64,000 bases of DNA from an uncultured Gammaproteobacteria bacterium (GTDB taxonomy: Bacteria; Patescibacteriota; Patescibacteriia; UBA9934), in NCBI GenBank assembly GCA_964582615.1, contig CAZORP010000006.1, positions 3,426 through 67,425 of the forward strand. The letters are read 5' to 3'. The translations under genes were made by a program, and so were the position numbers. Below, one piece after another: positions 35,531 through 59,489 of this stretch. The notes beneath the pieces are model-generated. The model did no database searches and was not told the DNA's origin. It saw nothing but the letters and a program-made list of their open reading frames with translations. Every line of letters starts with the position of its first letter. Positions within the stretch are counted from its first letter, which is position 1.

Positions 35531-35605
35531 TCCGGGGTAGCTCAGCGGCAGAGCAGTTGACTGTTAATCAATTGGTCGTGGGTTCGATCCCCACCCCCGG
35601 AGCCA
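35531..35605 (+). tRNA. tRNA-Asn (anticodon GTT), CCA encoded
   Basis: Cloverleaf: acceptor tccgggg/ccccgga, D-arm gctc-agcggca-gagc, anticodon stem gttga/tcaat (one G-U pair) with loop cuGUUaa, T-arm gtggg-ttcgatc-cccac, discriminator G, then CCA. Confidence 0.9.
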
Positions 35606-35645
35606 TGAGAAGGCGTGTGAGGTGACCCACATGCCTTGTCAAAAA
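35599..35645 (+). repeat. attL: left copy of a 47-bp direct repeat that begins in the tRNA-Asn 3' end
   Basis: ggagccatgagaaggcgtgtgaggtgacccacatgccttgtcaaaaa recurs at 59443..59489 with one mismatch. Confidence 0.75.
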
Positions 35646-36006
35646 ACCACCATTGAAAAATGGCGGTTTTTTGTTTAAAGCTTGAGCAAATAACGACCCT
35701 TGGTAACCCATCCAAAAAATCGAAGCACCTGGGACGCAAAGGCGACGAATTTTTCTCAAACACCCAAAATCACGGATTTGCCTTATTTTTTCGGTTCGAA
35801 CCCCGACCATGGTTTGGCGACCTTACTTAATCGCAGTATTATATCTGTGTTCCTTGAAATGGAATTTGAGCTGGCGAGCAGGTGCGGTCAGTCGCTGAGG
35901 TGTTGAGTTAGCTAGGCGGGTTCAGACCCCTCCCGAGAGCATCGAATTGTGCTTTCGGGCGGGGGTTGTCTTTGAACCCCTGATCTAATTCTTAACACCA
36001 AACGAT

Positions 36007-36180
36007 ATGGCCAAAAAAGTCATCGTTCGTACTGGTGGAATTGTGCCCACTTCGGGTCAGTACCATCCGTCTGGTAGTCGTGACGAGGTTACCCTGGTAA
36101 AGGGAAAGCGCGTCCCGCCTAACAACGAAGGCGTTCGCCAAACGTTTACGCTGGTCGATAAGACCAAGCATAAGCGTTAA
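36007..36180 (+). CDS. Small hypothetical protein (57 aa), first ORF inside the island
   Basis: MAKKVIVRTGGIVPTSGQYHPSGSRDEVTLVKGKRVPPNNEGVRQTFTLVDKTKHKR. Below the ORF-track cut-off. Confidence 0.25.
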   Translation: MAKKVIVRTGGIVPTSGQYHPSGSRDEVTLVKGKRVPPNNEGVRQTFTLVDKTKHKR

Positions 36181-36239
36181 GTGAACGTGAATCCTTCTCG
36201 TCAGCTTTGATTTCAATTCAGGAATAAAATACTGGGTCG

Positions 36240-37562
36240 TCATTTTGACGATTTTACCTCGCCGTTTGTAATTACGAGAGTCGTTTTGATGTGTTGGATT
36301 AGGTCCCGCTTTTCTTCCTTGGTGCCTTCCTTCAGAATATACTTTGCACAAGCGTACACATCGATATCAGGCATAATTTCCGCAACTTTCGCAGTCGCCA
36401 CGTGACCGCCTAGACTTGAGATCATTTTTGTAAGTCGATCAACTTCTTGCTTGATCCGTTCCACCGCGGCGAGTTCGTTGATGTCGACTTTATCGATGAT
36501 TTTGTAGAGTTGATTGAGTAATTCCTCCTCGCGTATGTATGGCTGTTTGCAACCCGTCATCCAGCGCTTCATGCATCCGTAGTAGACGTAGCGCTTCGTC
36601 GATCCGTCTTTCAGGCGTTTCACTTTCTGATCCGCACTAATGCCGGATCCGCAGGCGCCGCACTTGAAGATCTTCGTGAAGGCGAACTCATGTGTGCCGG
36701 GTAATGCTTTTGGTGCACATTTCATGACCTCCTGAACTTTGTCGTAAGTTTCTTTCGTGATGAGTGGCTCGTGCTTGCCGTCGTACCACTTTCCGCTTCC
36801 TTTTGGGAACTCGTACCGCCCCGTGTAGAACGGATTATCCATCATGCGATAGATCATGCTGAGCGTAATGCGCTTTCCTTTGCGGGTCGTGAGGTCGCGT
36901 TCGTTATCTAGCCATTTTTTCAAATCTCGTCCCGTCCAGCCCTCGTAGGCAACTTTGTGAAACGCTTCTTTGATGATCGGTCCACGCACAGGATCGACAA
37001 AGATTTTGCACGATCCTTTCTCGGCATACTTATCATGCAGATATCCAAGTGGTGACATGTTCGGTCGAAAGCCCATCTCGATCTTCGCACGGAAGCCACG
37101 CTTCACATTTACGCCCTTATTATCGTTCTCGAGCTTCGCCTGTCCGCACATCATCATGAGCATGAACTTGTCGCTGGGTGAGTTGGTAAACTTCGTGCCA
37201 TGCGTACGAATCTCACGCAATAACCCTTGATCCATCAAGTCCACGACCGTTCCAAGATCGCCTGCATTACGACTGATACGATCCGCCGCCCATGTGAGGA
37301 TTCCGTCGAATTTCTTTTCGCGAATGTCCCCAATTAAACGATTAAACTCCGGGCGTGACCCGGAGCTTTTCGCAGAGTGACTTTCGCGACGAACTTCGAC
37401 GACGTTCAAACCATCTCTCTCAGCCAGCTCAAGTGCCTCCTTGACCTGACTTTCGATTGACAATGCCTGACGCTCGTCATCCTCTGATGATTTTCTCGAG
37501 TAAAGGCAGTAGCGGATCGGTACAACCTTCTCTGATTCGTTATTCGTGTTTTGTGCGTACAT
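36240..37562 (-). CDS. Large serine recombinase (resolvase/invertase catalytic domain, recombinase domain and zinc ribbon)
   Basis: N-terminal YSRKSSEDDERQALSIESQ serine-recombinase catalytic motif. C-terminal CGACGSGISADQKVKRL...YYGC zinc-ribbon. 440 aa. Confidence 0.85.
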   Translation of the reverse strand: MYAQNTNNESEKVVPIRYCLYSRKSSEDDERQALSIESQVKEALELAERDGLNVVEVRRESHSAKSSGSRPEFNRLIGDIREKKFDGILTWAADRISRNAGDLGTVVDLMDQGLLREIRTHGTKFTNSPSDKFMLMMMCGQAKLENDNKGVNVKRGFRAKIEMGFRPNMSPLGYLHDKYAEKGSCKIFVDPVRGPIIKEAFHKVAYEGWTGRDLKKWLDNERDLTTRKGKRITLSMIYRMMDNPFYTGRYEFPKGSGKWYDGKHEPLITKETYDKVQEVMKCAPKALPGTHEFAFTKIFKCGACGSGISADQKVKRLKDGSTKRYVYYGCMKRWMTGCKQPYIREEELLNQLYKIIDKVDINELAAVERIKQEVDRLTKMISSLGGHVATAKVAEIMPDIDVYACAKYILKEGTKEEKRDLIQHIKTTLVITNGEVKSSK

Positions 37563-37681
37563 AAGATTTGTTTACTCCTTATGACCCACACACTACCGCG
37601 TCTGTCCCGGGTGCCTAGCCCAGGGAAGGAGGTAACTCAAACCCATCAAATACCCTTCCAAATTGCCACAATGCGTGAGTT

Positions 37682-38638
37682 TTGAGACAATACCGTCACT
37701 TTATGTCTCTTCTACGTATTAACGGCGATAAGCTCCAACAAATCCAAGAGACTGAGTTGAAGCTCGAGAAGGATTTGCAAAAGCTGACGGAACAAAACCT
37801 TGAAACCGTTTTTGGTCTTCAGTTTGTTTCGACTGAATTTGCGCTGAATAATCTTCGCATTGATACGTTGGCTTACGATACCGAGACAGCATCTTTCGTG
37901 ATTATCGAGTACAAGCGTGACCGAAGTTTTAGTGTTATCGATCAGGGCTTCGCCTATTTGGCGCTCATGTTGAATAACAAGGCGGATTTCATCTTGGAGT
38001 ACAACGAAAAAATTGGTACGAGTCTTCGCCGCGATGACATCGATTGGTCGCAAAGTCGTGTGCTATTCATCGCCCAGAGCTTTACCGCTCACCAACTTCA
38101 GGCAATCAATTTCAAGGATTTACCCATCGAACTCTGGGAGGCAAAGAAGTACAGCGACGATCTTATTTCCTTCAACCTCATTAAGGCTTTGCAATCCGCC
38201 GAATCCATTAACACCGTTTCGCATAACGAAGTCGTCTCTAAGGTGAGTAAGGAAGTTGAGGCGGTTTCTGCTGAAGACGTCTTCGCACGTGCAAAGGACA
38301 ATATCAATGATCTTTCTCAAGAATTGCGTCGACGCATTTTTGAAGTAGATACTCGTTTTCAGGAAAAAGCCACGAAGCGATATGTTGCCTACAAAATCGG
38401 TTGGAGAAATATTATCTCCATTGAGCCGGTTACCGGACGCCTTAACGTGACTTTTACTCGTACGCGTCCAGAGGATCTCAATGATCCCGAAAGCAAAGCG
38501 AAACTCCGTAATAAATCCCTAGAGCACTATAATCAATATCTCACCGATGTGAGCGTTACCGAATCGAGCGATGTAGACTATGTCATTTCGCTTTTGAAGC
38601 AGGTACTAGCGCGATTCCAAAAGGAAGAGATCATATAG
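37682..38638 (+). CDS. NucS/RecB-like PD-(D/E)XK nuclease-fold protein with an unknown C-terminal domain
   Basis: ELKLEKDLQKL...GLQFVSTEF...IDTLAYDTETASFVIIEYKRD...QGFAYL reproduces the E..D..(D/E)xK..Q..Y layout of NucS/DUF91-type nucleases. The start is probably MSLLRINGDK. Confidence 0.5.
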   Translation: MRQYRHFMSLLRINGDKLQQIQETELKLEKDLQKLTEQNLETVFGLQFVSTEFALNNLRIDTLAYDTETASFVIIEYKRDRSFSVIDQGFAYLALMLNNKADFILEYNEKIGTSLRRDDIDWSQSRVLFIAQSFTAHQLQAINFKDLPIELWEAKKYSDDLISFNLIKALQSAESINTVSHNEVVSKVSKEVEAVSAEDVFARAKDNINDLSQELRRRIFEVDTRFQEKATKRYVAYKIGWRNIISIEPVTGRLNVTFTRTRPEDLNDPESKAKLRNKSLEHYNQYLTDVSVTESSDVDYVISLLKQVLARFQKEEII

Positions 38639-38650
38639 ATTCAGTAGGCA

Positions 38651-38680
38651 AAAAACCAGCGCATAAACGCTGGCTTTTTG
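38651..38680. terminator. Bidirectional terminator between the convergent 37682..38638 ORF and hsdR
   Basis: aaaaaaCCAGCGcataaaCGCTGGctttttg. Confidence 0.7.
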
Positions 38681-38687
38681 TATCTGA

Positions 38688-41642
38688 CTATTTGTGTTCG
38701 TTGACCGACTTTACCACGTGGTCGAACATCTTTTCGCCGAAGTACGCCTTTAGGTCTGGATTCTTGTCGAGTTTTTTGTAGAAGTCAAAGTGACGGTTTA
38801 GCATCTCAACTAGCTCTTGGCCGAGCACCTCGTCGAATTTGATCTTTGCCGTATCCCGCGCGTTGTTTTTAATCGACCCCTGCAACATTGCGTTATTTAC
38901 CAACCTCTCGCCCAGCTGATTCGTAATAACGACATCTTCGAGAGTGAACTCAGTGCCAAATCGATCGTTGATGTCCGTGATGATTTTCGACAGACGATCA
39001 TGTTCCTTCATCTCTTCGCCTCGCTTGCCGCTTTGCATCGGTTCCAACAATCCATGCTCGTCCTCCAGGTGGATCGCGTCCTGCCCACGGTGTACGAGCT
39101 TGTATGATTCCATGTCAACGCTATCCAGCACCGCTGTTGGCAACTCTTCTTTAATTCGCGGTAATTTTTTCAAGAGCAAGCGTGTGAAAGTGTAGAGTTT
39201 TTCCAGTTCAGAGCTTTCGTACGGAATAATCTGTGAAGCAAACGCATAACGGCGGACGAAATCGGTACACTTCTTGCGGAAATCTTCCTGCTCTTGCGGC
39301 AGGCAATCCTCGAATTGTTGCACTGTCGCATCAAGGATGGCGTTAATCGTCGCCGGAGGCGCGTTGCGAAATAGTTCGTGTACGAATCCGTCCACCTCAT
39401 GCTGTGTGAACAGCTTAAAGGAATAGAGATCGCGCTCGAGGTCATGGAGGATATTCGGGTCCGTGCCTTCGGAAAGAACGGTGGTCGTGTAGTATGGTTG
39501 GAACGATTCTTGGATGTCGGCAGCATCGTTTACGAAGTCGAGCACAAATACCTCGTCCTTGTCCGACGTGGTGCGATTCAATCGGCTAAGCGTCTGCACT
39601 GCGCTAACGCCACTCAGCTTTTTATCGACATACATCGAGGCGAGGAGGGGCTGATCGAAACCTGTCTGGAATTTTTCGGCGACAATTAGGAATTTGAACT
39701 CGTCCTGCTCGAACGTCTTCGCAGTGGTCGCCTCAGGAACGCCATTCATGCCTCCTTCGGTATATTCGGTCACTCCGTCCTTAACCGTGCCGGAAAACGC
39801 TACCAGAGCCTTATACGGGTAATTGTGTTCGCGTAGGTAGGCATCCATAGCTATCTTGTAACGCACGGCATGTAAACGTGACTTTGTCACAATCATGGCC
39901 TTGGCTTTGCCGTGAATTTCCTTCGCGATTCGCGCGCGGAAATGCTCGGTCATGATCTCAACCTTCTTTTGGATTGCGTGCTCGTGTTTTTCAACATAAC
40001 CAATCAAAAGACGTTGAGCTTTTTTCTTGTCGAATTCCGGATCGTCCTCAACTTTCTTCAACAACGAAAAATACGCCTGATACGTTGTATAGTTTTTGAG
40101 TACGTCCAAGATAAATCGCTCCTCAATGGCTTGTTTCATCGAGTACAGGCTGAACGGATAATACTTTCCATCAACTGGACTCTTTGTTCCGAACAACTCA
40201 AGCGTTTTTTGTTTTGGAGTCGCGGTAAACGCAAAAAAGCTGATGTTATCCGTTTTCACCTTTCGGCTCCGGAGTTTTTTCAAGATCATCTCTTCTGTCG
40301 TCTCAGGCTCTTCTGAATCCTGTTGTGCCGCCGCGTCGAGACTAGAGGTCGTTAATGCTTCACGGAGATTCGCGGCTCCTTCACCGGTTTGTGATGAATG
40401 TGCCTCGTCAATAATCACCGCAAAGTTTTTTCCAGGAAGATTGCCGATTGAGTCGACGATAAACGGGAATTTTTGAAGAGTCGTGATGACGATCTTTTCT
40501 CCGGTTTCCAACGCATCCTTTAACTCCTGTGAACCTTCAGTAATCGCTTTCACGACTCCCGCGCGTTGCTCGAACTGCGTGACCGTATCGCGTAACTGAC
40601 GGTCGAGCACACGACGATCCGTAATAACAAGAACGGTATCAAAAACCTTTTTGTCATCATGGTTGTACAGTTCTGAAAGACGATGCGCAGTCCAACCAAT
40701 CGTATTACTCTTGCCGCTTCCCGCACTGTGTTGGATGAGATAGTTGCGACCAGCGCCATTCTCACGTGCATCTACGAGCAAACGCTGAACGGTGTCACGC
40801 TGATGATAGCGTGGAAAAATCAACACTTCCTTGACCGTCTCCTTTCCTTTCTCATCCGTGCTCTTAAGTTTTTGCAGCGTGATGAATTTCCCAACGAGCT
40901 CGAGGATGCTCTTCTTGGTCCAGACATCCTCCCACAGGTACGAGGTCTTATAGCCTCGGTCATTCGGAGGGTTGCCCGCGCCGCTGTTATAGCCCTTGTT
41001 GAACGGCAAGAAGTAGGTTTTGAGTCCAGCAAGCTTCGTCGTCATGTAGACCTGGTCGGCGTCCACAGCGAAGTGTGCCAGACATCGCTTGAAAGCCAAA
41101 AGAGGCTCTTTGTGATCTCGATCCGTCCGGTATTGTTGGATCGCGTTTTTCACCGTCTGTCCGCTCAATTGATTTTTTAGCTCAACGGTAAAAATCGGAA
41201 GACCGTTGAGGAAGATAACGGTATCAATGGACAGATCCGGGTTCTTTTCGCTGAAGTGCACCTGACGCATGACGCTCAAGACATTCGCCTCATAAAGCCG
41301 TCGCGTCTCTTCGTTGATGGCGGAATTTGGCGGGAAATATGCCATCTTGAAATTCACACCATGATCAGTGAATCCATTTCGAAGAACATCAAGCACACCC
41401 CGATTCTTCACCTCATCCGCAAGCCGACCAAATAAATGTTCGTTGAATTCTTCTCCATGAATTTCTAAGAGTTTACCAACCGATTCAGGTTGCGTTGCGT
41501 CGAGGAACTCCAAAACCATTTCAGGATCCACACAAAGACTCTTGAGATAAAGCTGGTTCGACTGCTTGCGATATCCGTTGACCTCGACGAGCTGTTGCTC
41601 GATATATTCTTCGAAGCCGATTTCTTTAGTATTAGTTGGCAT
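38688..41642 (-). CDS. hsdR: Type I restriction enzyme R subunit
   Basis: 984 aa. SF2 helicase motifs (HSAGSGKSNT motif I, VIIDEAHSSQTGE DEAH box). N-terminal nuclease region. Last gene of the hsd operon. Confidence 0.95.
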   Translation of the reverse strand: MPTNTKEIGFEEYIEQQLVEVNGYRKQSNQLYLKSLCVDPEMVLEFLDATQPESVGKLLEIHGEEFNEHLFGRLADEVKNRGVLDVLRNGFTDHGVNFKMAYFPPNSAINEETRRLYEANVLSVMRQVHFSEKNPDLSIDTVIFLNGLPIFTVELKNQLSGQTVKNAIQQYRTDRDHKEPLLAFKRCLAHFAVDADQVYMTTKLAGLKTYFLPFNKGYNSGAGNPPNDRGYKTSYLWEDVWTKKSILELVGKFITLQKLKSTDEKGKETVKEVLIFPRYHQRDTVQRLLVDARENGAGRNYLIQHSAGSGKSNTIGWTAHRLSELYNHDDKKVFDTVLVITDRRVLDRQLRDTVTQFEQRAGVVKAITEGSQELKDALETGEKIVITTLQKFPFIVDSIGNLPGKNFAVIIDEAHSSQTGEGAANLREALTTSSLDAAAQQDSEEPETTEEMILKKLRSRKVKTDNISFFAFTATPKQKTLELFGTKSPVDGKYYPFSLYSMKQAIEERFILDVLKNYTTYQAYFSLLKKVEDDPEFDKKKAQRLLIGYVEKHEHAIQKKVEIMTEHFRARIAKEIHGKAKAMIVTKSRLHAVRYKIAMDAYLREHNYPYKALVAFSGTVKDGVTEYTEGGMNGVPEATTAKTFEQDEFKFLIVAEKFQTGFDQPLLASMYVDKKLSGVSAVQTLSRLNRTTSDKDEVFVLDFVNDAADIQESFQPYYTTTVLSEGTDPNILHDLERDLYSFKLFTQHEVDGFVHELFRNAPPATINAILDATVQQFEDCLPQEQEDFRKKCTDFVRRYAFASQIIPYESSELEKLYTFTRLLLKKLPRIKEELPTAVLDSVDMESYKLVHRGQDAIHLEDEHGLLEPMQSGKRGEEMKEHDRLSKIITDINDRFGTEFTLEDVVITNQLGERLVNNAMLQGSIKNNARDTAKIKFDEVLGQELVEMLNRHFDFYKKLDKNPDLKAYFGEKMFDHVVKSVNEHK

Positions 41643-43002
41643 ATATTTTTCTTAATGTAGCAATTCTTTTCTGTATCGAAGATGAACTTTTATTAACTTC
41701 CTTCATGAAAGCCATAACTTCGTAATGAAATCCGTTATGGATTAGACGTTCGGATAATCGATCTAGCGATGATACGAAGTCGTCTTTTTCCTTATCGTGT
41801 AATCGCTCATGAATTGCCGAAAACTGATATGCTCTAGCTTCTTTAAGAAAATCATCATCAAGATACCAGGAAAAAAGTTTAACCCTTTGAGGATAGGTGA
41901 CCTTTTCCCAATTACAGGTTAAGGCACGATTCAGTAGGGGTAAACCGCGAGCTTTAATTTTCTCCCGCTGATCGCTGACGATTATCTTTGTCACCTCAGC
42001 GATAAAAAGGTTTGATTTGTCTGGATCTTTGTTTGATCCAGGCTGAAGCAAAATATCAAATAGTTTGTATGACCGGTATTCGATCATCTCATCGACAGTT
42101 CTGATAACCACCTTCTTTTGATTGATGGCTAAACCCAAAGCAAGCAGTTTTCTGGAAGCGCAGTAAATGACATGTTCAATTTGATCACGTTTTTTTACAA
42201 TGATTGCCTGGTCATCGGCGTATCGGAAATATTTTGCGCCAATTTCGTCGCAAATTTTCTTGATGTAAATATCGTATTCTTGGAGATAAAAGTTAGCCAA
42301 AATTCGCGAGCAGTCAGACATGGCATCTTGTGGCAACCCTACCGTTTGAGGATTGTAATGATTGATCGACTTGTTCCAGAAATTTAGGAAATGAAAAAGA
42401 AGTGAAAGTTCGTCACGATATTTTCCATCAAAAACTTCTCCTATTTTGCGTTTTAAAATGTCTAAATTAATAGAATCATAAAAATTGGCGATATCTAACT
42501 CAACCACGTATCCCTCGCTAGATTCCTTCAGTGAAACGTAAAGTTTCGCGTTGAAATCCTTGTATGCGATATACCACGCCGTTGGCGAAAACGACCACGA
42601 TGGCATTGATACTGTTGGATCGTAGAGATTTTCAATCTTTTTTTGTATTTCTGCTTCTTCTGCGTCTCTGTAGTTTAGACCACTGATGCTCCAGCCGCCG
42701 AAAGTATTTTCGGTTCTATTTCGAGCAAGTTTATGCTCGAGTCGAATAACGCAATAGTAATAAACGATGTAGTCCCTAATGGTAAAAACAGGAGAGATAC
42801 GAGCAACGCCAGATCCTTTATTGTGAGCAATGTAAAATTCTGGCTTTACTGGATGATATGTTTTGCTTTTAATTGCCGTATAAACCGACTTCAAAAGTTC
42901 CTCTTTTTCTTGGTAGGAAGAGGGGGTATTGAGAGGTAAATTCTGGAATGCTTTCCAGAATTTACGACCAAAAATCTTTTTGAATGATTTATAACTAATC
43001 AT
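41632..43002 (-). CDS. Reverse transcriptase (Abi/UG-like stand-alone RT) embedded between hsdS and hsdR
   Basis: RT motifs: motif 2 region YIAHNKGSGVARISPVFTIRDYIV, motif A LDIANFYDSINLDIL, motif B' GLPQDAMSDCSRILANFYL, motif C FRYADDQAII (YADD), motif D LAINQKKVVIR. About 150 aa of C-terminal extension with no known domain. It overlaps the hsdR start by 11 nt and abuts the hsdS stop. Confidence 0.8.
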   Translation of the reverse strand: MISYKSFKKIFGRKFWKAFQNLPLNTPSSYQEKEELLKSVYTAIKSKTYHPVKPEFYIAHNKGSGVARISPVFTIRDYIVYYYCVIRLEHKLARNRTENTFGGWSISGLNYRDAEEAEIQKKIENLYDPTVSMPSWSFSPTAWYIAYKDFNAKLYVSLKESSEGYVVELDIANFYDSINLDILKRKIGEVFDGKYRDELSLLFHFLNFWNKSINHYNPQTVGLPQDAMSDCSRILANFYLQEYDIYIKKICDEIGAKYFRYADDQAIIVKKRDQIEHVIYCASRKLLALGLAINQKKVVIRTVDEMIEYRSYKLFDILLQPGSNKDPDKSNLFIAEVTKIIVSDQREKIKARGLPLLNRALTCNWEKVTYPQRVKLFSWYLDDDFLKEARAYQFSAIHERLHDKEKDDFVSSLDRLSERLIHNGFHYEVMAFMKEVNKSSSSIQKRIATLRKIYAN

Positions 43003-43015
43003 GTATACGTCAGAC

Positions 43016-44233
43016 CTATCCAAGAACAGTCATCACATTTAGTGACTGACTATATTCCGTGAGGAGATTAATCGATTTATCAATGGAGCCGATCACTGAG
43101 TTAAACAATTTTGTTTTTTCGTTTAAGTAATCAACGATTCTTTTTTGTTCGTTAATTTGAGGTAGAATGATCTTTAGGTTTTCAATCACTCCCATGCCAA
43201 TATTTTGTTGTGTCCCGTAAGACCAAGATAACTTAACCTGATCTTGAAATAATTTTGTTTGTAGAAAGAAATAAAGATATTCAGGCAAAACAACGTCCCT
43301 ATTTGCTCTGATTAGGGCAAGCGGTGACCAGATACTAAATTCCTCGTCAGTTTCAACTAGACCAATTCTTCCGGTTGTTGCGCCAGATTTCACCATAAAA
43401 ATATCACCCCGTTGTGGCTTACATTTTTTGCAGAATTCCTCATGATCTTCACGGCTAATGAATCCACGCTTTTCAGCAAAATCGATCGTGTTGTTTCCTT
43501 GAATTGATTGGGCTGAAAGGAATGGGATACCAGAATCAAGTATTTCCGGTGTCGAGTGTGGTCCGTCAGTAATTTTTGTTTTAACAACTTGTTTCAATGA
43601 ACGAATAAAGAAATCTTTTGGGATTTTTTCGATCCATGCAGTATTACTATTGATAAGTTCGACATCATTATTTAAGCCTCGCGTGATTGCTTGATGAATT
43701 ATGAATGCCCTTTGCTCATTTAGTTTTTGAATGAGCCTTTTTTTGTCTTCTATCAATCGTGTGATGATAGTCGAATTTGAATCAAGTTTTTGTACTACTT
43801 TTTCTTGATCGGCTAATGCCGGTAGTTCAATTTTCTGATTACCAATAAAAGTCCAATTTGCGCGAGGCATTTTAGAACCGTAGGTTGAGTTGTTGACCGC
43901 CTTAATGAAGTCATCAGCTCTCAGTCTGTACGCAAGAAATGCTGGATTAACCTTTTCTTTTTTTGAATTGAGGACCAGAAGTTCGCCCGTACAAACCCCC
44001 TCACTTTTAGCCAATACAACCTTCGCGAGATACGGACGAAGCTTTCCGAATAGAACATCGTCTTTTTGGTAATAACTAGTAACACCATCGGAAACGATTG
44101 GGGTTTCCGATTCAATGATCTTGCCCGTGCCGCTTTCAATATTTTCCAGCCCAAGATACGGCAATCCGTCTTCGGACTGACCTCGAGCTCCACGGAGCGG
44201 GGCAATGTATTTGATCTTGATAGATTCGCTCAT
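43016..44233 (-). CDS. hsdS: Type I restriction-modification S (specificity) subunit
   Basis: Two target-recognition domains separated and followed by conserved coiled-coil repeats (LPALADQEKVVQKLD...; LPQINEQKRIVDYLNE...). AT-rich. Start ATG is 1 nt after the hsdM stop. Confidence 0.9.
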   Translation of the reverse strand: MSESIKIKYIAPLRGARGQSEDGLPYLGLENIESGTGKIIESETPIVSDGVTSYYQKDDVLFGKLRPYLAKVVLAKSEGVCTGELLVLNSKKEKVNPAFLAYRLRADDFIKAVNNSTYGSKMPRANWTFIGNQKIELPALADQEKVVQKLDSNSTIITRLIEDKKRLIQKLNEQRAFIIHQAITRGLNNDVELINSNTAWIEKIPKDFFIRSLKQVVKTKITDGPHSTPEILDSGIPFLSAQSIQGNNTIDFAEKRGFISREDHEEFCKKCKPQRGDIFMVKSGATTGRIGLVETDEEFSIWSPLALIRANRDVVLPEYLYFFLQTKLFQDQVKLSWSYGTQQNIGMGVIENLKIILPQINEQKRIVDYLNEKTKLFNSVIGSIDKSINLLTEYSQSLNVMTVLG

Positions 44234-44234
44234 A

Positions 44235-46247: not shown

Positions 46248-46248
46248 A

Positions 46249-47154: not shown

Positions 47155-47484
47155 AATGTAATAAAATCTTCACTTATTTACATTGAGAAGTCTATCACAT
47201 CCTGCATACCAGTCAAGTAATCCGCTATAAAATTACCAAATTTACCCAAGATTCCTTCAATTTCGCAGAAGCCCCATGGGGGTAAGGAAGGGCTGTGAAT
47301 AGCCAATCAAATCGCTTTACGTGAATTGGTTTGTAAGCTATTATTTAGGAGCTTCACTACTCAGCCTAATAAAGGCCGAATTTCGGCTTAACCGGATCGC
47401 GCGCGATAAGCGGTGTCCGGTTAAAACAGTTCTAGCACGATCCGTGCTTGGGCTGGGTAGTGAAGCACCACCGGGCATCGCTTT

Positions 47485-48648: not shown

Positions 48649-48654
48649 CAGTCT

Positions 48655-51834: not shown

Positions 51835-52253
51835 GGTTCTGGGGTGAGAGAAATGAGTCCGAGATTCTGGTAAGAGTTGGTGAGCTTTTCCTTCTCATCG
51901 TCCGTGAGATTTTGCTTTGTTGGGGTCGTAATCTGCACCTTGTTCGCGTACGCCTTGTGGCGGCTGCGCAACCAAAACGAAATCGCGGCGAAGTTTTGTT
52001 CCTTGATCGCGCTGATGAGTTGGGATTCTGCCATGTCGTTGATGAATCCCGTTCCTTCGCCAAGTGCCTCCTCGGTTTGCGCGGCGAATGTCACATCCTC
52101 CGCGATCCATCGGTAATACGTCGCGCGGGCGACGCCGAGCTTCTCGCACGCGACCTGGACGATCGGGATCTTGCGAAGGTGGTCGACAAGAAGCTTTTTC
52201 TGCTCTTCCTGCCGCTTGTCGATGAGCGGGCTATTTCGCTTTGTCCTTGGCAT
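51762..52253 (-). CDS. terS: Phage terminase small subunit (HTH type)
   Basis: ACEKLGVARATYYRWIAED HTH near the N-terminus. It overlaps the terL start. Confidence 0.65.
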   Translation of the reverse strand: MPRTKRNSPLIDKRQEEQKKLLVDHLRKIPIVQVACEKLGVARATYYRWIAEDVTFAAQTEEALGEGTGFINDMAESQLISAIKEQNFAAISFWLRSRHKAYANKVQITTPTKQNLTDDEKEKLTNSYQNLGLISLTPEPYDKQESPRPADAGSGDEQQDREN

Positions 52254-53034
52254 AAGTCGCGATCTTTACGGCTTTGATGCCGGTTTTCTTTTCGAACCGT
52301 TCGATGCCGGCGGCAACATATTCGGGATCGATTTCGACGCCGAAGCAACGGCGTCCCGTATCCTCGGCTGCAATAATTGCGGTGGAACTTCCGAGGAAGG
52401 CGTCATATACGACGTCACCGATCTGCGATGAGTTCAAGATCATCCGACGAATAAGCCCAACCGGCTTCATAGTGGGATGAATACCGGATTTCGAGGGTTT
52501 CGGGTACACAACCACGGATTTGTCCTTCGACTTGAAGAACCGGTGCGTGCCATACCAGCCATATGCGATGAGCTCGTGCTGACCGATGTAGTCGAGCCGC
52601 CCAATTACCGCGTGGTGCTTTACCCATACGAGCAACTGCGTGAACGTCATGCCCGCGTCGAGCATCCCTTCGCGCATGGCGAAGATCATCTTGTCGGCGT
52701 TGAACAGGTACGCGGCGTTCTTTTTCGCCATGTGCGGAATGACCGCTTCGAGCCATGCCTTCGTGAAGGCGCGGTACTGCTCGTCCGTCTGTTCGTGATC
52801 GTTCTGAATTTCTTTCTCCTTCGCGATCTTGATGTTCAGTCCTTGTTTGCTCGTTGCGTACGCGACTCCGTAAGGTGCGTCCGCGCAGATAAGCGCGACG
52901 CGTTCGCTACCAAGAAGTGCGGATACAAGACCCGCGTCGCAGCTGTCGCCGCAAGCGATGCGATGGTTGCCAAGAGAAAAAATGTCTCCGTAACTAATTG
53001 ATAAGTTTTGCTTTGTCTCCGGTGAGGGTTTCAT
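52231..53034 (-). CDS. Phage-type DNA methyltransferase (beta-class N6A/N4C, DNA_methylase N-4/N-6 family)
   Basis: Motif IV ICADAPYG comes before motif I VYDAFLGSSTAIIAA (beta-class order). Confidence 0.85.
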   Translation of the reverse strand: MKPSPETKQNLSISYGDIFSLGNHRIACGDSCDAGLVSALLGSERVALICADAPYGVAYATSKQGLNIKIAKEKEIQNDHEQTDEQYRAFTKAWLEAVIPHMAKKNAAYLFNADKMIFAMREGMLDAGMTFTQLLVWVKHHAVIGRLDYIGQHELIAYGWYGTHRFFKSKDKSVVVYPKPSKSGIHPTMKPVGLIRRMILNSSQIGDVVYDAFLGSSTAIIAAEDTGRRCFGVEIDPEYVAAGIERFEKKTGIKAVKIATYAKDKAK

Positions 53035-54298
53035 ATCTGTCGATAATTACTTGAGTGAACACAGGCGACTGTTCGATCATGTACGCTTTACGCTTCATTT
53101 GTTCGCACGAGGTCATGAGAGACCCCGATCCCGCACACAAATCCAACACGCAATCGCCAATTTTTGTGCATCGGCGTAGTGGTTTTTCGGCCAAGGTCGT
53201 CGGCTTTTCGGTAGGATGGGTGTAGTCTTGTCCGTTCACGCGTTTCGCGAGCCAAATATCCATCACGTCCCAGATATCGTCGATTGTGCGGTTGCCGGGT
53301 TGTACGTCGCGATTCAAAATTTCCGTGACGCTCGTGATCGCGCTATTGAGAAATGGTTTCCCAATGGTTCCGTACGCGCACGGCTCGTACCCCTTGTTAA
53401 ACGCGACCTGCGGAGTCATGTTGAACGAGTTCTTTACCCATAGGCACGTGCGCCTGTTCATGATGCCGAGTTCGCGGTACAGCTCTTGCAACATCCCAAC
53501 GTAGTTCTGGTCACACCACGAAAAGATGTGTGCGTCTTCAGCGAGAACCGCTTTTCCGTTTTCCAAACACGTCTTCAGGAACGCGCGATATTCGTCGTAC
53601 GTTTTCGCGTCGTTCACCTCGCCGCTGTATTTACCCTTCGTGCTAATGCCCTTGGAATAATCCAGCTTGATGTTGTACGGAAAGTCTGTGTAGAACATTT
53701 GGATCTTCGCGTCGCCGACAACCCGCTTCACGTTGTCGAGTACGGTTGAGTCCGCGCACAAGACGCGATGGTTTCCAAGTTGGTACAGCTGCCCATTCTT
53801 CACCCGCGTCGACTTCGCCTCCTTGACGGCGTGCTCCACGTCGAAGTTATCGTCCTCGGTGGAAAGGGAGTCGCCCCAGATGTCGTTGAGGTCGCCGTCG
53901 TCGAACCCGATGTCCAGCAGTTCGCCGATGTCGAACGCTTTCAGTAATTCGTAATCCCACGCGCCGGTGTTTTTGTTGAGACGAATTAAAAGCTCGCGTT
54001 CCTTTTCGAGGCTCGGAATGTTTACGAAGACAACGGGAACCTCAGTCATGCCGAGATCCTTGGCACACTGGAGTCTGAAGTGGCCGCCGATCAAAATGTT
54101 CTCACGCCCCTTGGCACAGTTCGCGATCAGTGGATCAACGAGGCCGAACTTACGGATGCTCTCGCGGAGCTTTTCCGCCGCGGGTTCGTCCCACGTGCGC
54201 GGGTTCTTCTCGTTCGCCTGCAATGAATTAATGGGTACGTTCACGATCCGGAGATCGCGTGCGGCCGTTTTTGACCGCACTAAAGAGGAACTCTTCAT
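52994..54298 (-). CDS. ParB-like nuclease domain fused to a DNA methyltransferase
   Basis: N-terminal ParB/Srx-like region (IVNVPINSLQANEKNPRTW...GGHFRLQCAKDLG). C-terminal MTase with motif IV YTDFPYN and motif I VLDLCAGSGSLMTS. Confidence 0.85.
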   Translation of the reverse strand: MKSSSLVRSKTAARDLRIVNVPINSLQANEKNPRTWDEPAAEKLRESIRKFGLVDPLIANCAKGRENILIGGHFRLQCAKDLGMTEVPVVFVNIPSLEKERELLIRLNKNTGAWDYELLKAFDIGELLDIGFDDGDLNDIWGDSLSTEDDNFDVEHAVKEAKSTRVKNGQLYQLGNHRVLCADSTVLDNVKRVVGDAKIQMFYTDFPYNIKLDYSKGISTKGKYSGEVNDAKTYDEYRAFLKTCLENGKAVLAEDAHIFSWCDQNYVGMLQELYRELGIMNRRTCLWVKNSFNMTPQVAFNKGYEPCAYGTIGKPFLNSAITSVTEILNRDVQPGNRTIDDIWDVMDIWLAKRVNGQDYTHPTEKPTTLAEKPLRRCTKIGDCVLDLCAGSGSLMTSCEQMKRKAYMIEQSPVFTQVIIDRYETLTGDKAKLIN

Positions 54299-57267: not shown

Positions 57268-57270
57268 TGA

Positions 57271-57780
57271 TCAGGAGGCGAGGTTTGGATTCTCTTCCTT
57301 CAAAAACACGAAATACCAGAAGTGCTTGCCGTTGCGAATTTCACGGGCTTTGAGTTCTCCGATGCGCACTTTCTTTGCCACAGTCGAATGATGCCAGCCG
57401 AACTTTTTCTTAAAATCGTCTGACGAATACCAGCTCTTACGGTCGGTCGCAACGGTACCCGGAATCACGCCATCTTCGACCGCCTTTTGGCACGGGCGAC
57501 ACTTGATGCCGAACCTGTCGAACCAGCCCTCGCCGCCTTCTAAGTGTTGGTAGCAAACGATACAGTTGTATGTACCATTTGAAGGAACGGCGAAGCCATT
57601 AGGTTCCGCAACGAGCCGCTCTTTCCATCGTTCGATCCTCGTGTGGACGTTCAGCAGAGCGCGGTAGAAACCGAGCAGATTTTCTGAGTATTCCAGTGCC
57701 TGGGCGTCGGTCAGGTCCTGGTCGTACTCCTTCTTCCAAAGCTCCTTAAACGACTGAATCCGTTCGTCATTTGTGCGCAT
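57271..57780 (-). CDS. Zn-ribbon + HTH_17 (excisionase/MerR-like) DNA-binding protein
   Basis: CxxC...CxxC (NCIVCYQ...KCRPCQK) then C-terminal WYSSDDFKKKFGWHHSTVAKKVRIGELKAREIRNGKHFWYF, which fits the HTH_17 pattern. Probable start MRTNDERIQ, internal to the 242-aa ORF. A truncated paralog lies at 61798..62058. Confidence 0.5.
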   Translation of the reverse strand: MRTNDERIQSFKELWKKEYDQDLTDAQALEYSENLLGFYRALLNVHTRIERWKERLVAEPNGFAVPSNGTYNCIVCYQHLEGGEGWFDRFGIKCRPCQKAVEDGVIPGTVATDRKSWYSSDDFKKKFGWHHSTVAKKVRIGELKAREIRNGKHFWYFVFLKEENPNLAS

Positions 57781-57847
57781 AGGATTATTGTGAAAAGCCC
57801 TTGAAACCATCGTATTCCTGATTTGAGACACAAGCCATTCTCGTGTC

Positions 57848-58148
57848 TCATTTGTCTCATTTCGATGAGACCCGGGTGCCAGTTTGACCCCTCCAAAAGA
57901 CCCCTTAAACATTGTCGAAAGGTGAGTTCGAGACCCGTACGCCGAGCCAAGTGGAAACGGCTGGAGCAATCTGGTCGTTTTTACTTTTGTATCAGTCATT
58001 ATTAAGTGGTTCTAACCTTGCGGAATCGTTCTCAAGAGCCTTTTGCGATTCGAAGATAGGAACGAGCCAAGGATTGGGGTTAATGCTGAGCTTTCCGTTC
58101 AAAAGTGTCGGGTTCGAACTTGAAACAGTTCGAATTTTGTTTTATGCT
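57848..58148. repeat. Copy A of a conserved structured non-coding element upstream of the Zn-ribbon regulator (with a 130-bp insertion relative to copy B)
   Basis: Shares about 85% identity over roughly 110 nt with 62119..62259. Hairpin GTCTCAtttcgATGAGAC. Two GAGACCCG(G/T)(G/A)(T/C)GCC direct repeats and repeated GACCCCT motifs. A terminal hairpin GGTTCGAACttgaaacaGTTCGAAtt followed by ttttgtttta on the plus strand. Confidence 0.6.
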
Positions 58149-58157
58149 AGGAATTAT

Positions 58158-59360
58158 ATGCGTTCTGAAAAACAAAATAATTCACTCATCAAAACAGTAA
58201 TTACCATCCTCGCAGCTTCGGTTATTCAAATATCAGCAGGCTGGTTTTTGTTGAGTAATATTGTTTTTGCCGATTCGCACCCCAATCTCATTGAATCGAT
58301 TTTGTACTTTTTGCTCGTACTCACTTCTTACGCAGCAACTCTTGCGGTTTACATCAAGACAGCACGTGCGAAGCAGGCGGTACTGCTTGGAATACTTGGT
58401 TACTTCGCTTCAGCGGTAATACTTACACTCGCACCATTAATCAATGGTTTTTATGTAACAGGCGTTGGTGGCGTCGGGCTGGTCAGCCTATCGGTAATGA
58501 CCGTTCACCTAATAATTTTACTTTTCACACTCAAGTTACTGAAAATAAATAGAGAGGTGGGTAGGACTAAAATAGAGTTAAAGAATTTTGCAATTGCTTT
58601 TCTCTGTGTCGCCGTATCGTTATTTTTCATAGGCTTCTTCAAAACACTTGCATGGAATACTGAACCGAATTCATATTTGGCACTAGGCTATCTAGATCTA
58701 AAAGATCTAGCTGCGAGTATTAGGGAGTCGCTCTTTATGGGTCTGCTGAGTGTCATATTAGATCTCCGAATTCTAGGTATCTTAACGGCATACTCGGTAC
58801 TGATTTACATCTTATTGGGACGGGTAGGAAAACATCTGAATTTCAGCAAAAAGATTTTAGTTATATTTGTACCAATCTGGATCGTCATCGCTCTATTTGT
58901 AGCAATGAGTGGTCAAACATTGAAACAGGGTCTACATGACAATTTCAGTAATTTTCAACCAACTTGGGATAATCAAAGTTTGATCACTAATCATAAAGTT
59001 GAACTCAGCGGAGTTTCATTTACCGTTTGGTGCGATACCACTCTAGACGTAAGCGACCAAAGTATAGAATGTAAAAATCGCTATACGGTTTTACCTACGG
59101 ATCGTTTAAGGACACCACGAGACACGTATTCGAAACAGATCAACGTAGGTTTGTTTGAAAAAGTGGCGATTCAGTCAAATACCACAACAGAATGTGTTTA
59201 CACCGAAAACGATATACAGATTGATAATGCGTTTTTCACATTGAAAACGGAATGGTGTGATTCTAGAAACTTCCCAGTCATGGCAGGGATCGAATGGGAG
59301 GAGTTCATCTTGCCGTTAATGGAGTGTTTCGGTTTTGATAAGTGCGAAACGACTCAGTGA
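58158..59360 (+). CDS. Polytopic membrane protein with a C-terminal Cys-containing soluble domain; last gene of the island
   Basis: Start at MRSEKQNN (internal ATG of the 482-aa ORF). About 8 TM helices, then a 140-aa hydrophilic tail with 5 Cys. Confidence 0.45.
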   Translation: MRSEKQNNSLIKTVITILAASVIQISAGWFLLSNIVFADSHPNLIESILYFLLVLTSYAATLAVYIKTARAKQAVLLGILGYFASAVILTLAPLINGFYVTGVGGVGLVSLSVMTVHLIILLFTLKLLKINREVGRTKIELKNFAIAFLCVAVSLFFIGFFKTLAWNTEPNSYLALGYLDLKDLAASIRESLFMGLLSVILDLRILGILTAYSVLIYILLGRVGKHLNFSKKILVIFVPIWIVIALFVAMSGQTLKQGLHDNFSNFQPTWDNQSLITNHKVELSGVSFTVWCDTTLDVSDQSIECKNRYTVLPTDRLRTPRDTYSKQINVGLFEKVAIQSNTTTECVYTENDIQIDNAFFTLKTEWCDSRNFPVMAGIEWEEFILPLMECFGFDKCETTQ

Positions 59361-59442
59361 AGAATGCGGGCGATCTATGCAAACTGCGCCAATTCAGTCT
59401 CCAGTCCCGCCCAGTTTGTGGTTCTGAACGCGTCCAGAGTGC

Positions 59443-59489
59443 GGAGCCATGAGAAGGCGTGTGAGGTGACCCACATGTCTTGTCAAAAA
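59443..59489 (+). repeat. attR: right copy of the 47-bp direct repeat
   Basis: ggagccatgagaaggcgtgtgaggtgacccacatgtcttgtcaaaaa, 46/47 identical to 35599..35645. The downstream hairpin stem is partly co-varied (accaccat...atggcggt versus agtcgtc...ggcgact). Confidence 0.75.

What the first reader, a model, noticed from the sequence alone, without database searches (positions are those of the whole stretch)
35531..59489. A 24-kb defence island inserted at tRNA-Asn, bounded by 47-bp direct repeats, with a serine rather than tyrosine recombinase
The last 7 nt of tRNA-Asn(GTT) plus 40 nt downstream (35599..35645) recur 23.8 kb away (59443..59489) with one mismatch. Everything between them is accessory: a large serine recombinase next to attL, nucleases, a type I R-M operon, an RT, phage terminase and methyltransferase genes, and an RloC-like ATPase. 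The segment shows internal composition shifts. Long direct repeats are the signature of tyrosine-integrase islands, yet the only recombinase is a large serine recombinase, which normally leaves only a 2-bp crossover and no long repeats. Either the integrase that made the repeats has been lost, or this recombinase family behaves unusually here. The hairpin immediately after each repeat keeps its structure with different stem bases (accaccat/atggcggt versus agtcgtc/ggcgact), suggesting a conserved structural role such as a tRNA or att terminator. The interval 35780..35990 also holds a tRNA-like T-arm fragment (tcggTTCGAACcccga) and further hairpins, possibly a relic of an earlier attachment site.
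Basis: seen in the sequence. Interest (0 to 1): 0.7.

Follow-up and report, generated by a model that had tools for sequence, protein, structure and literature searches.

The report
Serine-recombinase cassette array at tRNA-Asn
Downstream of a tRNA-Asn gene in an uncultured Patescibacteria (Uhrbacteria-like) genome lies a chain of at least five mobile cassettes, mostly carrying anti-phage genes, apparently inserted one after another at the last bases of the tRNA gene by a large serine recombinase, an enzyme class rarely linked to tRNA sites.

Summary
tRNA-Asn(GTT) lies at 35531-35605. A 47/48-nt repeat occurs at 35598-35645 and 59442-59489 with one mismatch. The only recombinase is a 440-aa large serine recombinase (LSR), and the cargo is defence genes.

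The interpretation needs revision. The repeat is not a crossover footprint. It is element DNA: a replacement tRNA trailer hairpin plus terminator that begins immediately after ...GAGCCA. The same sequence follows at least 12 different tRNA-Asn sequences and one tRNA-Gln in other genomes.

The window holds five junctions, all ending in GAGCCA: 35600-05, 57944-49, 59444-49, 62216-21 and 63430-35. Each non-tRNA left arm mimics the tRNA T-arm and acceptor end. The locus is therefore a tandem array of at least five units that runs past 59489 and off the window. The repeat exists because units A and C carry the same arm type.

A complete 11-kb relative (L030) shares only GAGCCATGAG between its ends. 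An occupied-versus-unoccupied pair of contigs places the exchange inside GAGCCA.

LSR relatives sit next to a tRNA 3' end in 13 of 13 informative genome loci. No tyrosine integrase was found.

The closest analogue is the staphylococcal SCC tandem defence cassettes. I rate this a new variant of a known kind. Recombination itself is untested.

The parts
35531..35605 (+). tRNA-Asn(GTT), intact, CCA encoded. Its last 6 nt, GAGCCA (35600-35605), form junction J1. The T-arm plus acceptor 3' strand is the inferred chromosomal (B) half-site.
35606..35823 (+). Right arm P'a of unit A. It comprises TGAG, hairpin 1 (35610-35619/35628-35637), the A-run, terminator hairpin 2 (35646-35653/35660-35667) with its T-run (to 35672), and a conserved ~150-nt extension ending in the T-arm-like motif at 35791-35806.
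   Evidence: nhmmer E=2e-74 against a profile of P' arms from other genomes; alignment; folds
36007..36180 (+). 57-aa ORF between P'a and the recombinase gene. Function unknown.
   Evidence: no family hit
36240..37562 (-). Large serine recombinase, 440 aa. Its 3' end faces the tRNA.
   Evidence: Pfam PF00239, PF07508, PF13408; phrog_95 integrase 2e-69; R23-K24-S25 and four Cys invariant in 21 homologues; aligns to TP901-1 integrase
37682..38638 (+). DUF5655 protein (PADLOC candidate PDC-S18)
38688..46247 (-). Type I R-M operon: hsdM 44235-46247, hsdS 43016-44272, reverse transcriptase UG13b 41632-43023, hsdR 38688-41642.
   Evidence: the same block at 94-95% aa identity in L003 and L030
46249..47154 (-). 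301-aa protein, weak Fic-like (SoFic) match
47485..50121 (+). Two nucleases: PDDEXK_4 (PDC-S26) 47485-48648 and DUF2779/Cas4-like 48655-50121
50093..54298 (-). Phage-derived backbone: ParB_N-MTase 52994-54298, MTase 52231-53034, terminase large subunit 50093-52063. This block is syntenic with the recombinase in distant relatives.
   Evidence: synteny in L009-L013, L039, L042, L043, L053, L084
54871..57267 (+). AAA_13 ATPase (PDC-S06)
57827..57949 (+). Left arm of type P2 ending in GAGCCA (junction J2, 57944-57949). This is the end of unit A. It overlaps the 5' end of ORF 57271-57999(-).
   Evidence: nhmmer E=4e-43 to P2 arms of L022/L025; sequence
57950..59449 (+). Unit B. Right arm P'b (57950-~58140) is homologous to the arm next to a second LSR family in L024/L029. 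A membrane protein follows (within ORF 57912-59360). A P1-type left arm (59392-59449) ends in GAGCCA (junction J3, 59444-59449).
59450..62221 (+). It is followed by ORF 59678-60427 and an AbiJ_NTD4/PDC-S32 protein at 60771-61607. A P2 left arm (62101-62221) ends in GAGCCA (junction J4, 62216-62221).
62222..63435 (+). Unit D. It starts with ATGAG, a hairpin (62226-62234/62243-62251) and TTGTTTT. An APH-family kinase gene lies at 62288-63373. A P1-like left arm (63399-63435) ends in GAGCCA (junction J5, 63430-63435).
63436..64000 (+). Start of unit E. It has a hairpin (63442-63449/63454-63461) plus a T-run, then a RhuM-family gene interrupted by TGA at 63627-63629. The unit runs off the window.

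Best explanation
The locus is a tandem array of at least five integrative units. They accreted downstream of tRNA-Asn by site-specific recombination at the very 3' end of the tRNA gene.

The recombinase is the large serine recombinase of unit A (36240-37562). It belongs to a large Patescibacteria clade whose members sit beside tRNA 3' ends.

Inferred mechanism:
1. A dimer binds the tRNA T-arm/acceptor 3' strand plus whatever follows it (attB). Another binds the element site (attP). The left arm of attP mimics the tRNA 3' end. The right arm starts with TGAG plus a hairpin carrying a GACC-type motif about 20 nt from the junction.
2. Strands are exchanged inside GAGCCA, probably at the CA of the CCA end.
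3. The tRNA stays intact. Its native trailer and terminator are displaced, and the element supplies a replacement trailer hairpin and intrinsic terminator.
4. Each new unit enters at the tRNA and pushes older units outward.
5. Units without a recombinase (B-E) are either decayed elements or cassettes moved in trans.

The 47-bp 'direct repeat' is the replacement trailer module, present in both unit A and unit C.

Shown: the anatomy, the conservation patterns, and the linkage of the recombinase family to tRNA genes. Inferred: catalysis by this protein, the exact crossover dinucleotide, the order of insertion, and trans-mobilisation.
For: 1. Family linkage to tRNA genes.
- In 13 of 13 informative genome loci, a 50-92% identical LSR has a tRNA 3' end (or, in L009, a tRNA-3'-end-like junction 1.1 kb away plus a CCA-less tRNA-Asn at 4.0 kb) on the opposite strand, 0.2-4 kb past its stop codon. 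Nine are Asn, including L009 and one with a group I intron. The more distant relatives sit at Ser and Leu.
- 4 of 6 further look-ups show the same arrangement. In L040 a tRNA-Gln lies 100 nt from the stop codon.
- 17 of 34 informative IMG/VR loci show it, five of them 116-202 nt from the stop.

2. The sequence right of GAGCCA is element DNA.
- Of 37 junctions, 26 are tRNA|P'. The P' is near-identical behind at least 12 different tRNA-Asn sequences and behind one tRNA-Gln, and a more divergent P' of the same type follows a second tRNA-Gln (L040). The other 11 are mimic-arm|P'.

3. The exchange point is bracketed on both sides.
- L022 and Ga0156524_121 are 99.9% identical for 7,174 nt rightwards from the junction. 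To the left, one has a tRNA-Asn and the other a P2 arm.
- P2 arms are followed by three unrelated right sides, and the switch occurs immediately after GAGCCA.

4. A long repeat is not required. L030 is a complete 11-kb unit (AbiEii, LSR, HsdR, RT, HsdS, HsdM, Fic-like). Its ends share only GAGCCATGAG, and each end has an intact hairpin of a different type.

5. The window has five GAGCCA junctions with P1 or P2 arms.

6. Right arms of all types keep the same architecture, a hairpin followed by a terminator, despite different sequences. A GA[CA]C motif lies at +17 to +23 in 16 of 30 distinct arms, against 9.6% expected by chance.

7. The LSR is full length, with an invariant catalytic R-K-S and four invariant Cys.

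8. No tyrosine recombinase was found in the window, in L030, in L022, or in the Pfam-annotated loci L037-L044.
Against: - No recombination product was observed. I found no circular junction and no empty site from the same strain.
- The exact LSR protein is not on record in public assemblies, so read-level evidence could not be sought.
- Canonical LSRs do not recombine attP with attL-type sites without a directionality factor. Accretion at tRNA|P' junctions therefore requires relaxed site choice, and none was shown here.
- In three independent attR-type junctions (window J3, L030, L031), the P'-like sequence stops near the terminator. That pattern could mean a native host trailer rather than a remnant of an older unit.
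- Two of six look-ups (L037, L041) and half of the informative IMG/VR loci show no tRNA within reach.
- The metagenome junction set was collected with a pattern from the hairpin, so it is biased towards one arm type.
Confidence: 0.72

Rival explanations
1. This is one 24-kb element, and the 47-63-nt identity is true attP/attB homology. On this view the host tRNA-Asn was natively followed by the trailer hairpins, the element carries a copy, and the LSR (or homologous recombination) crossed over somewhere inside that block.
For: - The attR-type copies in the window (59450-59504), L030 and L031 all lose similarity to the element arm close to the terminator. That is where a native tRNA transcription unit would end.
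- The repeat is about the size of an LSR att site, and hairpin 1 is a near-palindrome.
Against: - All 26 tRNA-adjacent occurrences of this arm type are occupied. The 21 that were long enough for the right-arm alignment all continue into element-specific sequence, or have an LSR nearby. None is a naive site.
- The sequence is identical behind tRNA genes that differ from one another, and behind a tRNA-Gln.
- In L030 the two ends carry different intact hairpins, so no exchange occurred within or beyond them.
- Junction J2 (57944-57949) lies between the two repeats.
Confidence: 0.12
2. This is a classical tyrosine-integrase tRNA island whose integrase has been lost, and the LSR is an unrelated passenger.
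For: - Repeats of tRNA 3' sequence are the hallmark of tyrosine-integrase islands.
- The P2 arms are about 70% identical to the last 28 nt of the tRNA, so they could be old displaced tRNA ends.
Against: - No PF00589-type gene was found in the window, in the complete units, or in seven annotated contexts.
- The repeat covers only 7-8 nt of the tRNA.
- The LSR gene is the constant neighbour of the junction across relatives at 43-92% identity and across at least 8 tRNA species.
- Published surveys put S-Int use of tRNA sites at 4.9%. That is rare but non-zero (PMC7192596).
Confidence: 0.05
3. The repeated junctions arose by duplication or unequal homologous recombination within the island, not by site-specific insertion of separate units.
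For: The P2 arms at 57827-57949 and 62101-62221 are about 89% identical over 106 nt. That is long enough for RecA-dependent exchange.
Against: - Units between junctions have unrelated gene content and different right arms.
- The same arm types bound different cargo in unrelated metagenomes.
- The L022 versus Ga0156524_121 polymorphism switches exactly at the junction.
Confidence: 0.05

Closest known systems
Staphylococcal cassette chromosome (SCC/SCCmec) arrays moved by the large serine recombinases CcrAB/CcrC, including tandem anti-phage defence cassettes (PMC11470126)
   Same: - An LSR-driven insertion at the 3' end of a conserved housekeeping gene without inactivating it.
- Several cassettes in tandem, separated by repeated att sequences.
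- Only one cassette carries the recombinase.
- The cargo is enriched in defence genes.
- CcrB is the best-scoring NCBIfam model for this LSR.
   Different: - The target is a tRNA gene end, not rlmH.
- The recombinase is not a Ccr orthologue (116 bits against a cut-off of 900).
- There is a single recombinase gene rather than a ccrAB pair.
- The element supplies a tRNA trailer and terminator.
- Left arms mimic the tRNA T-arm.
- The host is Patescibacteria.
- Excision and trans-mobilisation are shown for SCC but not here.
tRNA-targeting integrative elements with tyrosine integrases (Islander-type islands; tycheposons of Prochlorococcus, 10.1101/2020.12.28.424599)
   Same: - tRNA-anchored hot spots with tandem elements and partial tRNA-like repeats.
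- Defence and adaptive cargo.
- PICI-like members carry packaging genes.
- A minority of tycheposons (27 of 937) encode an LSR.
   Different: - The crossover in those elements lies inside the tRNA (anticodon or T loop), and the element restores the tRNA 3' part.
- Here the whole tRNA is left in place, the shared core is 6 bp at its end, and the recombinase is a serine enzyme throughout the family.
Site-specific accretion and cis-mobilisable elements (CIMEs) of streptococcal ICEs/IMEs (PMC5704250)
   Same: [quoted passage not shown] Recombinase-less units keep both att sites.
   Different: - Those cases are mostly tyrosine-integrase systems with conjugation modules.
- No conjugation genes are present here. 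The conserved backbone is ParB-MTase, MTase and terminase large subunit.
Computationally predicted S-Int islands in t(m)RNA genes (Mageeney et al. 2020, PMC7192596)
   Same: LSR-type integrases are assigned to tRNA gene sites: 14 of 297 S-Int islands. The authors state this had not been reported before and needs experimental proof.
   Different: - Those are a few scattered cases from cultured genomes.
- Here it is a large clade (more than 7,300 proteins at E<=1e-30) in which tRNA linkage is the rule. The junction is defined to 6 bp and the arm architecture is conserved.

Membership tests
Large serine recombinase (serine integrase) | N-terminal resolvase-type catalytic domain with the Ser nucleophile in the Y-x-R-x-S motif | tested here: met
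   PF00239 2.4e-19. YSRKS aligns to YTRVS of TP901-1 integrase. R23, K24 and S25 are invariant in 21 homologues.
Large serine recombinase (serine integrase) | C-terminal recombinase domain and zinc-ribbon domain | tested here: met
   PF07508 7e-14 and PF13408 2e-8. C301, C304, C330 and C338 are invariant. The coiled-coil insert was not examined.
Large serine recombinase (serine integrase) | Short att sites with only a few identical bases around a 2-bp crossover | tested here: inconclusive
   The sequence shared by all junction types is GAGCCA. L030 attL and attR share 10 bp. The exchange is bracketed to 6 bp by comparison. The 2-bp stagger itself cannot be seen in sequence.
Large serine recombinase (serine integrase) | Catalyses attP x attB integration | not testable with these tools
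   Needs an in vitro or in vivo recombination assay.
Tyrosine-integrase tRNA island | Phage_integrase (tyrosine recombinase) gene in the island | tested here: not met
   None among the ORFs scanned in 35.6-64 kb, in L030 or L022, or in the annotated loci L037-L044.
Tyrosine-integrase tRNA island | The direct repeat consists of the tRNA 3' part from the anticodon or T loop to the end | tested here: not met
   Only 7-8 nt of the tRNA are repeated. The rest of the repeat lies downstream of CCA.
SCC-type cassette array | Ccr-family recombinase (CcrA/B/C) | tested here: not met
   CcrB model 116 bits against a cut-off of 900; CcrC 48 bits; CcrA 44 bits.
SCC-type cassette array | Integration at the 3' end of rlmH | tested here: not met
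   The target is tRNA-Asn.
SCC-type cassette array | Tandem cassettes separated by att sites, most lacking a recombinase | tested here: met
   Five junctions in the window. Units B-E have no recombinase. L022 holds a 3,982-bp recombinase-less unit between two junctions.
Defence island | Clustering of known or candidate anti-phage systems | tested here: met
   Type I R-M, RT UG13b, PDC-S06, PDC-S18, PDC-S26, SoFic-like and PDC-S32/AbiJ-like. Relatives carry CBASS, AbiEii, OLD/UvrD and type I R-M.
Prophage | Capsid, portal and tail genes alongside the terminase | tested here: not met
   Of the head-and-packaging category only the terminase large subunit was found, plus ParB-MTase and MTase. No structural hits in unit A.

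The most novel reading that the evidence does not exclude
A Patescibacteria-wide clade of large serine recombinases uses the universal 3'-terminal CA/CCA of tRNA genes as its crossover. It reads the T-arm as one half-site. It carries a replacement tRNA trailer-terminator module on its elements. It builds SCC- or integron-like arrays in which single-gene defence or resistance cassettes without a recombinase are captured and moved in trans.
Probability: 0.45. Interest if true: 0.7.

Novelty: new variant of a known kind. Interest (0 to 1): 0.6.

Why it matters
Serine integrases are textbook examples of enzymes that insert within genes and leave almost no repeat. tRNA targeting is considered the province of tyrosine integrases. 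The one survey I found that reports S-Int/tRNA cases calls them unprecedented and unproven (PMC7192596).

If this clade really recombines at the tRNA CCA end, several things follow:
- It explains how reduced-genome Patescibacteria acquire and shuffle defence systems.
- It adds a second, independent example of SCC-like cassette arrays.
- It offers compact (about 440 aa) integrases whose natural target, the T-arm plus CCA end, is conserved in many genomes. That is of practical interest for genome engineering.

It also warns island predictors that a long repeat beside a tRNA need not mark the ends of a single element.

Tried and rejected
1. Second integrase type. 'Half tRNA-Asn' copies next to some LSR units (L005, L023, L034, L024/L029) first suggested an integrase acting at the anticodon loop. 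For L005, L023 and L034, Rfam shows tRNA-Asn genes split by a group I intron, as described for Patescibacteria (PMC13011429). L024 and L029 show the same half-tRNA layout but gave no intron hit, probably because the contig ends there. Rejected.

2. Crossover at the centre of hairpin 1. Rejected because L030 has two different, internally complementary hairpins at its two ends.

3. Crossover to the right of the terminator. Rejected because P2 arms join three different right sides immediately after GAGCCA, and because identical right arms follow different tRNAs.

4. An internal att site at the T-arm-like motif, bounding a cargo slot up to the LSR gene. There is no conserved sequence after the LSR stop codon. 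Not supported.

5. The 482-aa ORF next to the distal repeat (57912-59360) as a hidden integrase. It is a multi-pass membrane protein with no recombinase domain, and its 5' part overlaps non-coding arm DNA.

6. A formal covariation count on hairpin 1. MAFFT put the arm types out of register, so I relied on the individual folds.

7. Empty site or circular junction from the same strain.
- The flanking pepA occurs on one Logan contig, which ends inside the tRNA.
- The exact LSR and AAA_13 proteins are not on record.
- No terminal overlaps indicating circular contigs.

8. Close LSR relatives in IMG/VR using the single protein as query: none. An alignment query found about 70.

Full report
**1. Observation**

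ARAGORN and Rfam both place one tRNA in the window, tRNA-Asn(GTT) at 35531-35605 with the CCA encoded. It has two hits in the window and none in 100 shuffles. Ungapped similarity extends to 63 nt at 92%.

- a 440-aa large serine recombinase (LSR) at 36240-37562(-), with Resolvase, Recombinase and Zn-ribbon domains;
- a type I R-M operon with a reverse transcriptase nested between hsdR and hsdS;
- two PD-(D/E)XK-type nucleases;
- a terminase large subunit;
- two DNA methyltransferases, one fused to ParB_N;
- an AAA_13 ATPase.

PADLOC assigns the RT to UG13b and four other proteins to candidate defence families. GC content swings from 0.37 to 0.57. No other recombinase domain was found. The 482-aa ORF beside the distal repeat is a membrane protein.

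**2. Host and the recombinase family**

The upstream flank encodes pepA, metG and alaS. Relatives of the LSR at 81-92% identity come from Candidatus Uhrbacteria and other Patescibacteria MAGs.

The linkage to tRNA genes is strong.
- In every one of the 13 genome loci with enough sequence past the LSR stop codon, a tRNA 3' end (or, in L009, a tRNA-3'-end-like junction at 1.1 kb plus a CCA-less tRNA-Asn at 4.0 kb) lies on the opposite strand 0.2-4 kb away. Relatives at 64-92% identity sit at tRNA-Asn. One of these (L005) was missed by ARAGORN because it carries a group I intron. The 50-55% relatives sit at tRNA-Ser or tRNA-Leu.
- Six further homologues were looked up by protein identity. Four gave a tRNA: three Asn and one Gln that lies only 100 nt from the stop codon.
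- In IMG/VR, about 70 contigs encode 43-58% relatives. Of the 34 informative ones, 17 have such a tRNA (Ser, Gln, Asp, Asn, Trp, Glu, Arg). Five of these lie 116-202 nt from the stop codon.

The family is large, with more than 7,300 proteins at E<=1e-30, and is named only 'recombinase family protein'. The LSR is therefore not a passenger. Its family is tied to tRNA 3' ends.

**3. What the repeat is**

A metagenome scan with the hairpin part of the repeat returned 19 stretches. Together with the genome loci, these give 37 junctions of this type.
- In 26 junctions the left side is a tRNA. There are at least 12 different tRNA-Asn sequences and two tRNA-Gln.
- The sequence starting right after ...GAGCCA is near-identical in nearly all of them. 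It consists of TGAG, a 10-13-bp hairpin, an A-run, a second hairpin with a T-run, and then about 150 nt more.

An intergenic sequence that is better conserved than the neighbouring tRNA, and that also follows a different tRNA, must travel with the element. I call it the right arm, P'.

In the other 11 junctions the same P' is preceded by one of two recurrent left arms that also end in GAGCCA:
- P1: GGTTCTnAnnnCGTCCAnnnnGCGGAGCCA;
- P2: GAGTTCGAGACCCGTACGCCGAGCCA.

Both resemble the tRNA T-arm/acceptor end, GGGTTCGATCCCCACCCCCGGAGCCA.

**4. The window is an array**

Profiles of these arms find five junctions in the window:

| Junction | Core GAGCCA | Left side | Right side |
|---|---|---|---|
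| J1 | 35600-35605 | tRNA-Asn | P'a |
| J2 | 57944-57949 | P2 arm | P'b, an arm homologous to the one next to a second LSR family (34% identity) in L024/L029 |
| J4 | 62216-62221 | P2 arm | ATGAG, hairpin, TTGTTTT |
| J5 | 63430-63435 | P1-like arm | hairpin, T-run |

The units are:
- A, 22.3 kb: the LSR, defence cargo and the terminase block;
- B, 1.5 kb: a membrane protein;
- C, 2.8 kb: an unknown ORF and an AbiJ-like protein;
- D, 1.2 kb: an APH-family kinase;
- E: a RhuM-family pseudogene, running off the window.

The 47-bp repeat exists because units A and C start with the same arm type. P'c matches the commonest allele in other genomes better (62 nt at 98%) than it matches P'a.

**5. Where exchange happens**

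Three comparisons bracket the exchange point.

(i) L030 is a complete 11-kb unit: tRNA-Asn | AbiEii, LSR (78% identity), HsdR, RT, HsdS, HsdM, Fic-like | P1 arm. Its two ends share only GAGCCATGAG. Each end has its own intact hairpin of a different sequence type. Exchange therefore did not occur within or beyond the hairpins, and a long repeat is not required.

(ii) L022 and contig Ga0156524_121 are 99.9% identical over 7,174 nt to the right of a junction. To the left, one has an intron-containing tRNA-Asn and the other a P2 arm. This is an occupied-versus-unoccupied polymorphism. It places the exchange at or to the right of GAGCCA.

(iii) P2 arms are followed by three unrelated right sides, with the switch immediately after GAGCCA. 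This places the exchange at or to the left of the final A.

Together these confine the exchange to the 6-bp GAGCCA.

Across the wider family, the junction always lies just after the discriminator plus CCA. Where CCA is not encoded, it lies after CA. This points to CA as the likely crossover dinucleotide, but that is an inference.

Right arms of unrelated sequence keep a GA[CA]C motif at +17 to +23 in 16 of 30 types, against 9.6% by chance. This roughly mirrors the GGTTC of the T-loop about the CA. It is what one would expect of two half-sites bound by a recombinase dimer, but the reading is speculative.

**6. Function of the hairpins**

Every right-arm type folds into a strong hairpin followed by a terminator-like hairpin with a T-run, or into a single hairpin with a T-run, although the sequences differ. 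Several stems contain G-T oppositions that pair only as G-U on the tRNA strand.

Integration at the CCA end removes the tRNA's native trailer and terminator. The simplest reading is that the element brings a replacement. In the distal copy the T-run has been lost.

**7. Nature of unit A**

The block ParB-MTase, MTase, terminase large subunit (phrog_38), variable cargo, LSR, right arm recurs in relatives down to 45% identity. That probably explains why IMG/VR lists them as viral. No capsid, portal or tail gene is present in unit A.

Whether these are decayed prophages, satellites or something else is open. Cargo in relatives includes CBASS, AbiEii, OLD/UvrD, KAP NTPase and other R-M systems.

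**8. Comparison with known systems**

The closest analogue is the SCC region of staphylococci. There, CcrAB/CcrC LSRs insert cassettes at the 3' end of rlmH. Tandem, recombinase-less cassettes enriched in defence genes are excised in all combinations by the Ccr enzymes (PMC11470126). CcrB is also the best, though far sub-threshold, NCBIfam match.

Accretion with cis-mobilisable remnants is well described for streptococcal ICEs and IMEs (PMC5704250).

For tRNA targets, Mageeney et al. found 14 of 297 S-Int islands in t(m)RNA genes. They noted that this had not been reported before and needs proof (PMC7192596). Tycheposons include a small LSR-bearing minority.

I found no paper in the held library describing this Patescibacteria clade.

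**9. Limits**

Nothing here shows catalysis. I could not obtain an empty site or a circle from the same strain.

Canonical LSRs do not recombine attP with attL-like sites. Repeated entry at tRNA|P' junctions therefore implies relaxed partner choice, as reported for Ccr enzymes, or a cofactor.

In three attR-type junctions the P'-like sequence ends near the terminator. This leaves some room for the rival view that such trailers can be native.

The junction set from the metagenome scan is biased towards one hairpin type.

**10. Verdict**

The single-island, tyrosine-footprint reading is not supported.

The best explanation is an LSR-built tandem array of cassettes anchored at the CCA end of tRNA-Asn. 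I rate it a new variant of a known kind, with interest 0.6.

Noticed in passing
L005:10724-11049, L023:7939-8175, L034:4598-4834: tRNA-Asn genes next to LSR units are split by group I introns in the anticodon loop and are missed by ARAGORN. This agrees with a 2026 report for Patescibacteria (PMC13011429). The window's own tRNA-Asn has no intron.
   Followed up: yes
window 41632-43023 (-): A UG13b reverse transcriptase gene is nested between hsdR and hsdS of a type I R-M operon, with overlapping gene ends. The block is conserved at about 95% aa identity in L003 and L030. UG13b is only a predicted defence RT (PMC9226505).
   Followed up: partly
window 63531-64000: The RhuM-family gene (PF13310) is interrupted by an in-frame TGA at 63627-63629. 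From memory of RhuM sequences, this is near where a conserved Trp would lie. It is probably a TGG-to-TGA pseudogene.
   Followed up: partly
window 35785-35806 and 58112-58127; L024 (flipped) ~296-313: A T-arm-like motif, (T)CGGTTCGA(A/T)CCCCGA or GTCGGGTTCGAAC, lies 165-190 nt inside the right arms of two different arm families. It is conserved in about 17-18 elements. Its role is unknown. It is not the edge of a cargo slot.
   Followed up: partly
L012:9655-9777, L043:7403-7538: LOOT RNA (RF03000) matches inside elements carrying LSR relatives.
   Followed up: no
L022:255-4233: A 3,982-bp recombinase-less unit sits between two junctions. It encodes a LexA-DNA-binding/S24 peptidase domain fused to an N6/N4 methyltransferase, plus a trypsin-like protease. 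It is found in two different left contexts.
   Followed up: partly
IMG/VR contigs behind L045/L049, L068/L072, L069/L071, L073/L083, L075/L091, L111/L112: Six viral-database contigs each carry two LSR relatives. This suggests tandem LSR-bearing elements.
   Followed up: no
L001 (Logan SRR16481183): A contig with a 100% identical pepA ends inside the tRNA-Asn T-loop. The exact LSR and AAA_13 proteins of the window are not on record in any assembly. A strain with different occupancy of the site may therefore exist in that sample.
   Followed up: partly
L009:12380-12440 and 15245-15319: A complete-chromosome MAG has an LSR unit whose junction lies on a tRNA-like end 2.8 kb away from a tRNA-Asn that lacks an encoded CCA. 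The intervening segment was not analysed.
   Followed up: no
window 47205-47260 vs L030:12350-12400: Downstream of the Fic-like gene, the window shares about 50 nt with L030 and then lacks the P1 arm that ends the L030 unit. So either the short L030 unit is a reduced derivative, or unit A is a fusion of two units.
   Followed up: partly
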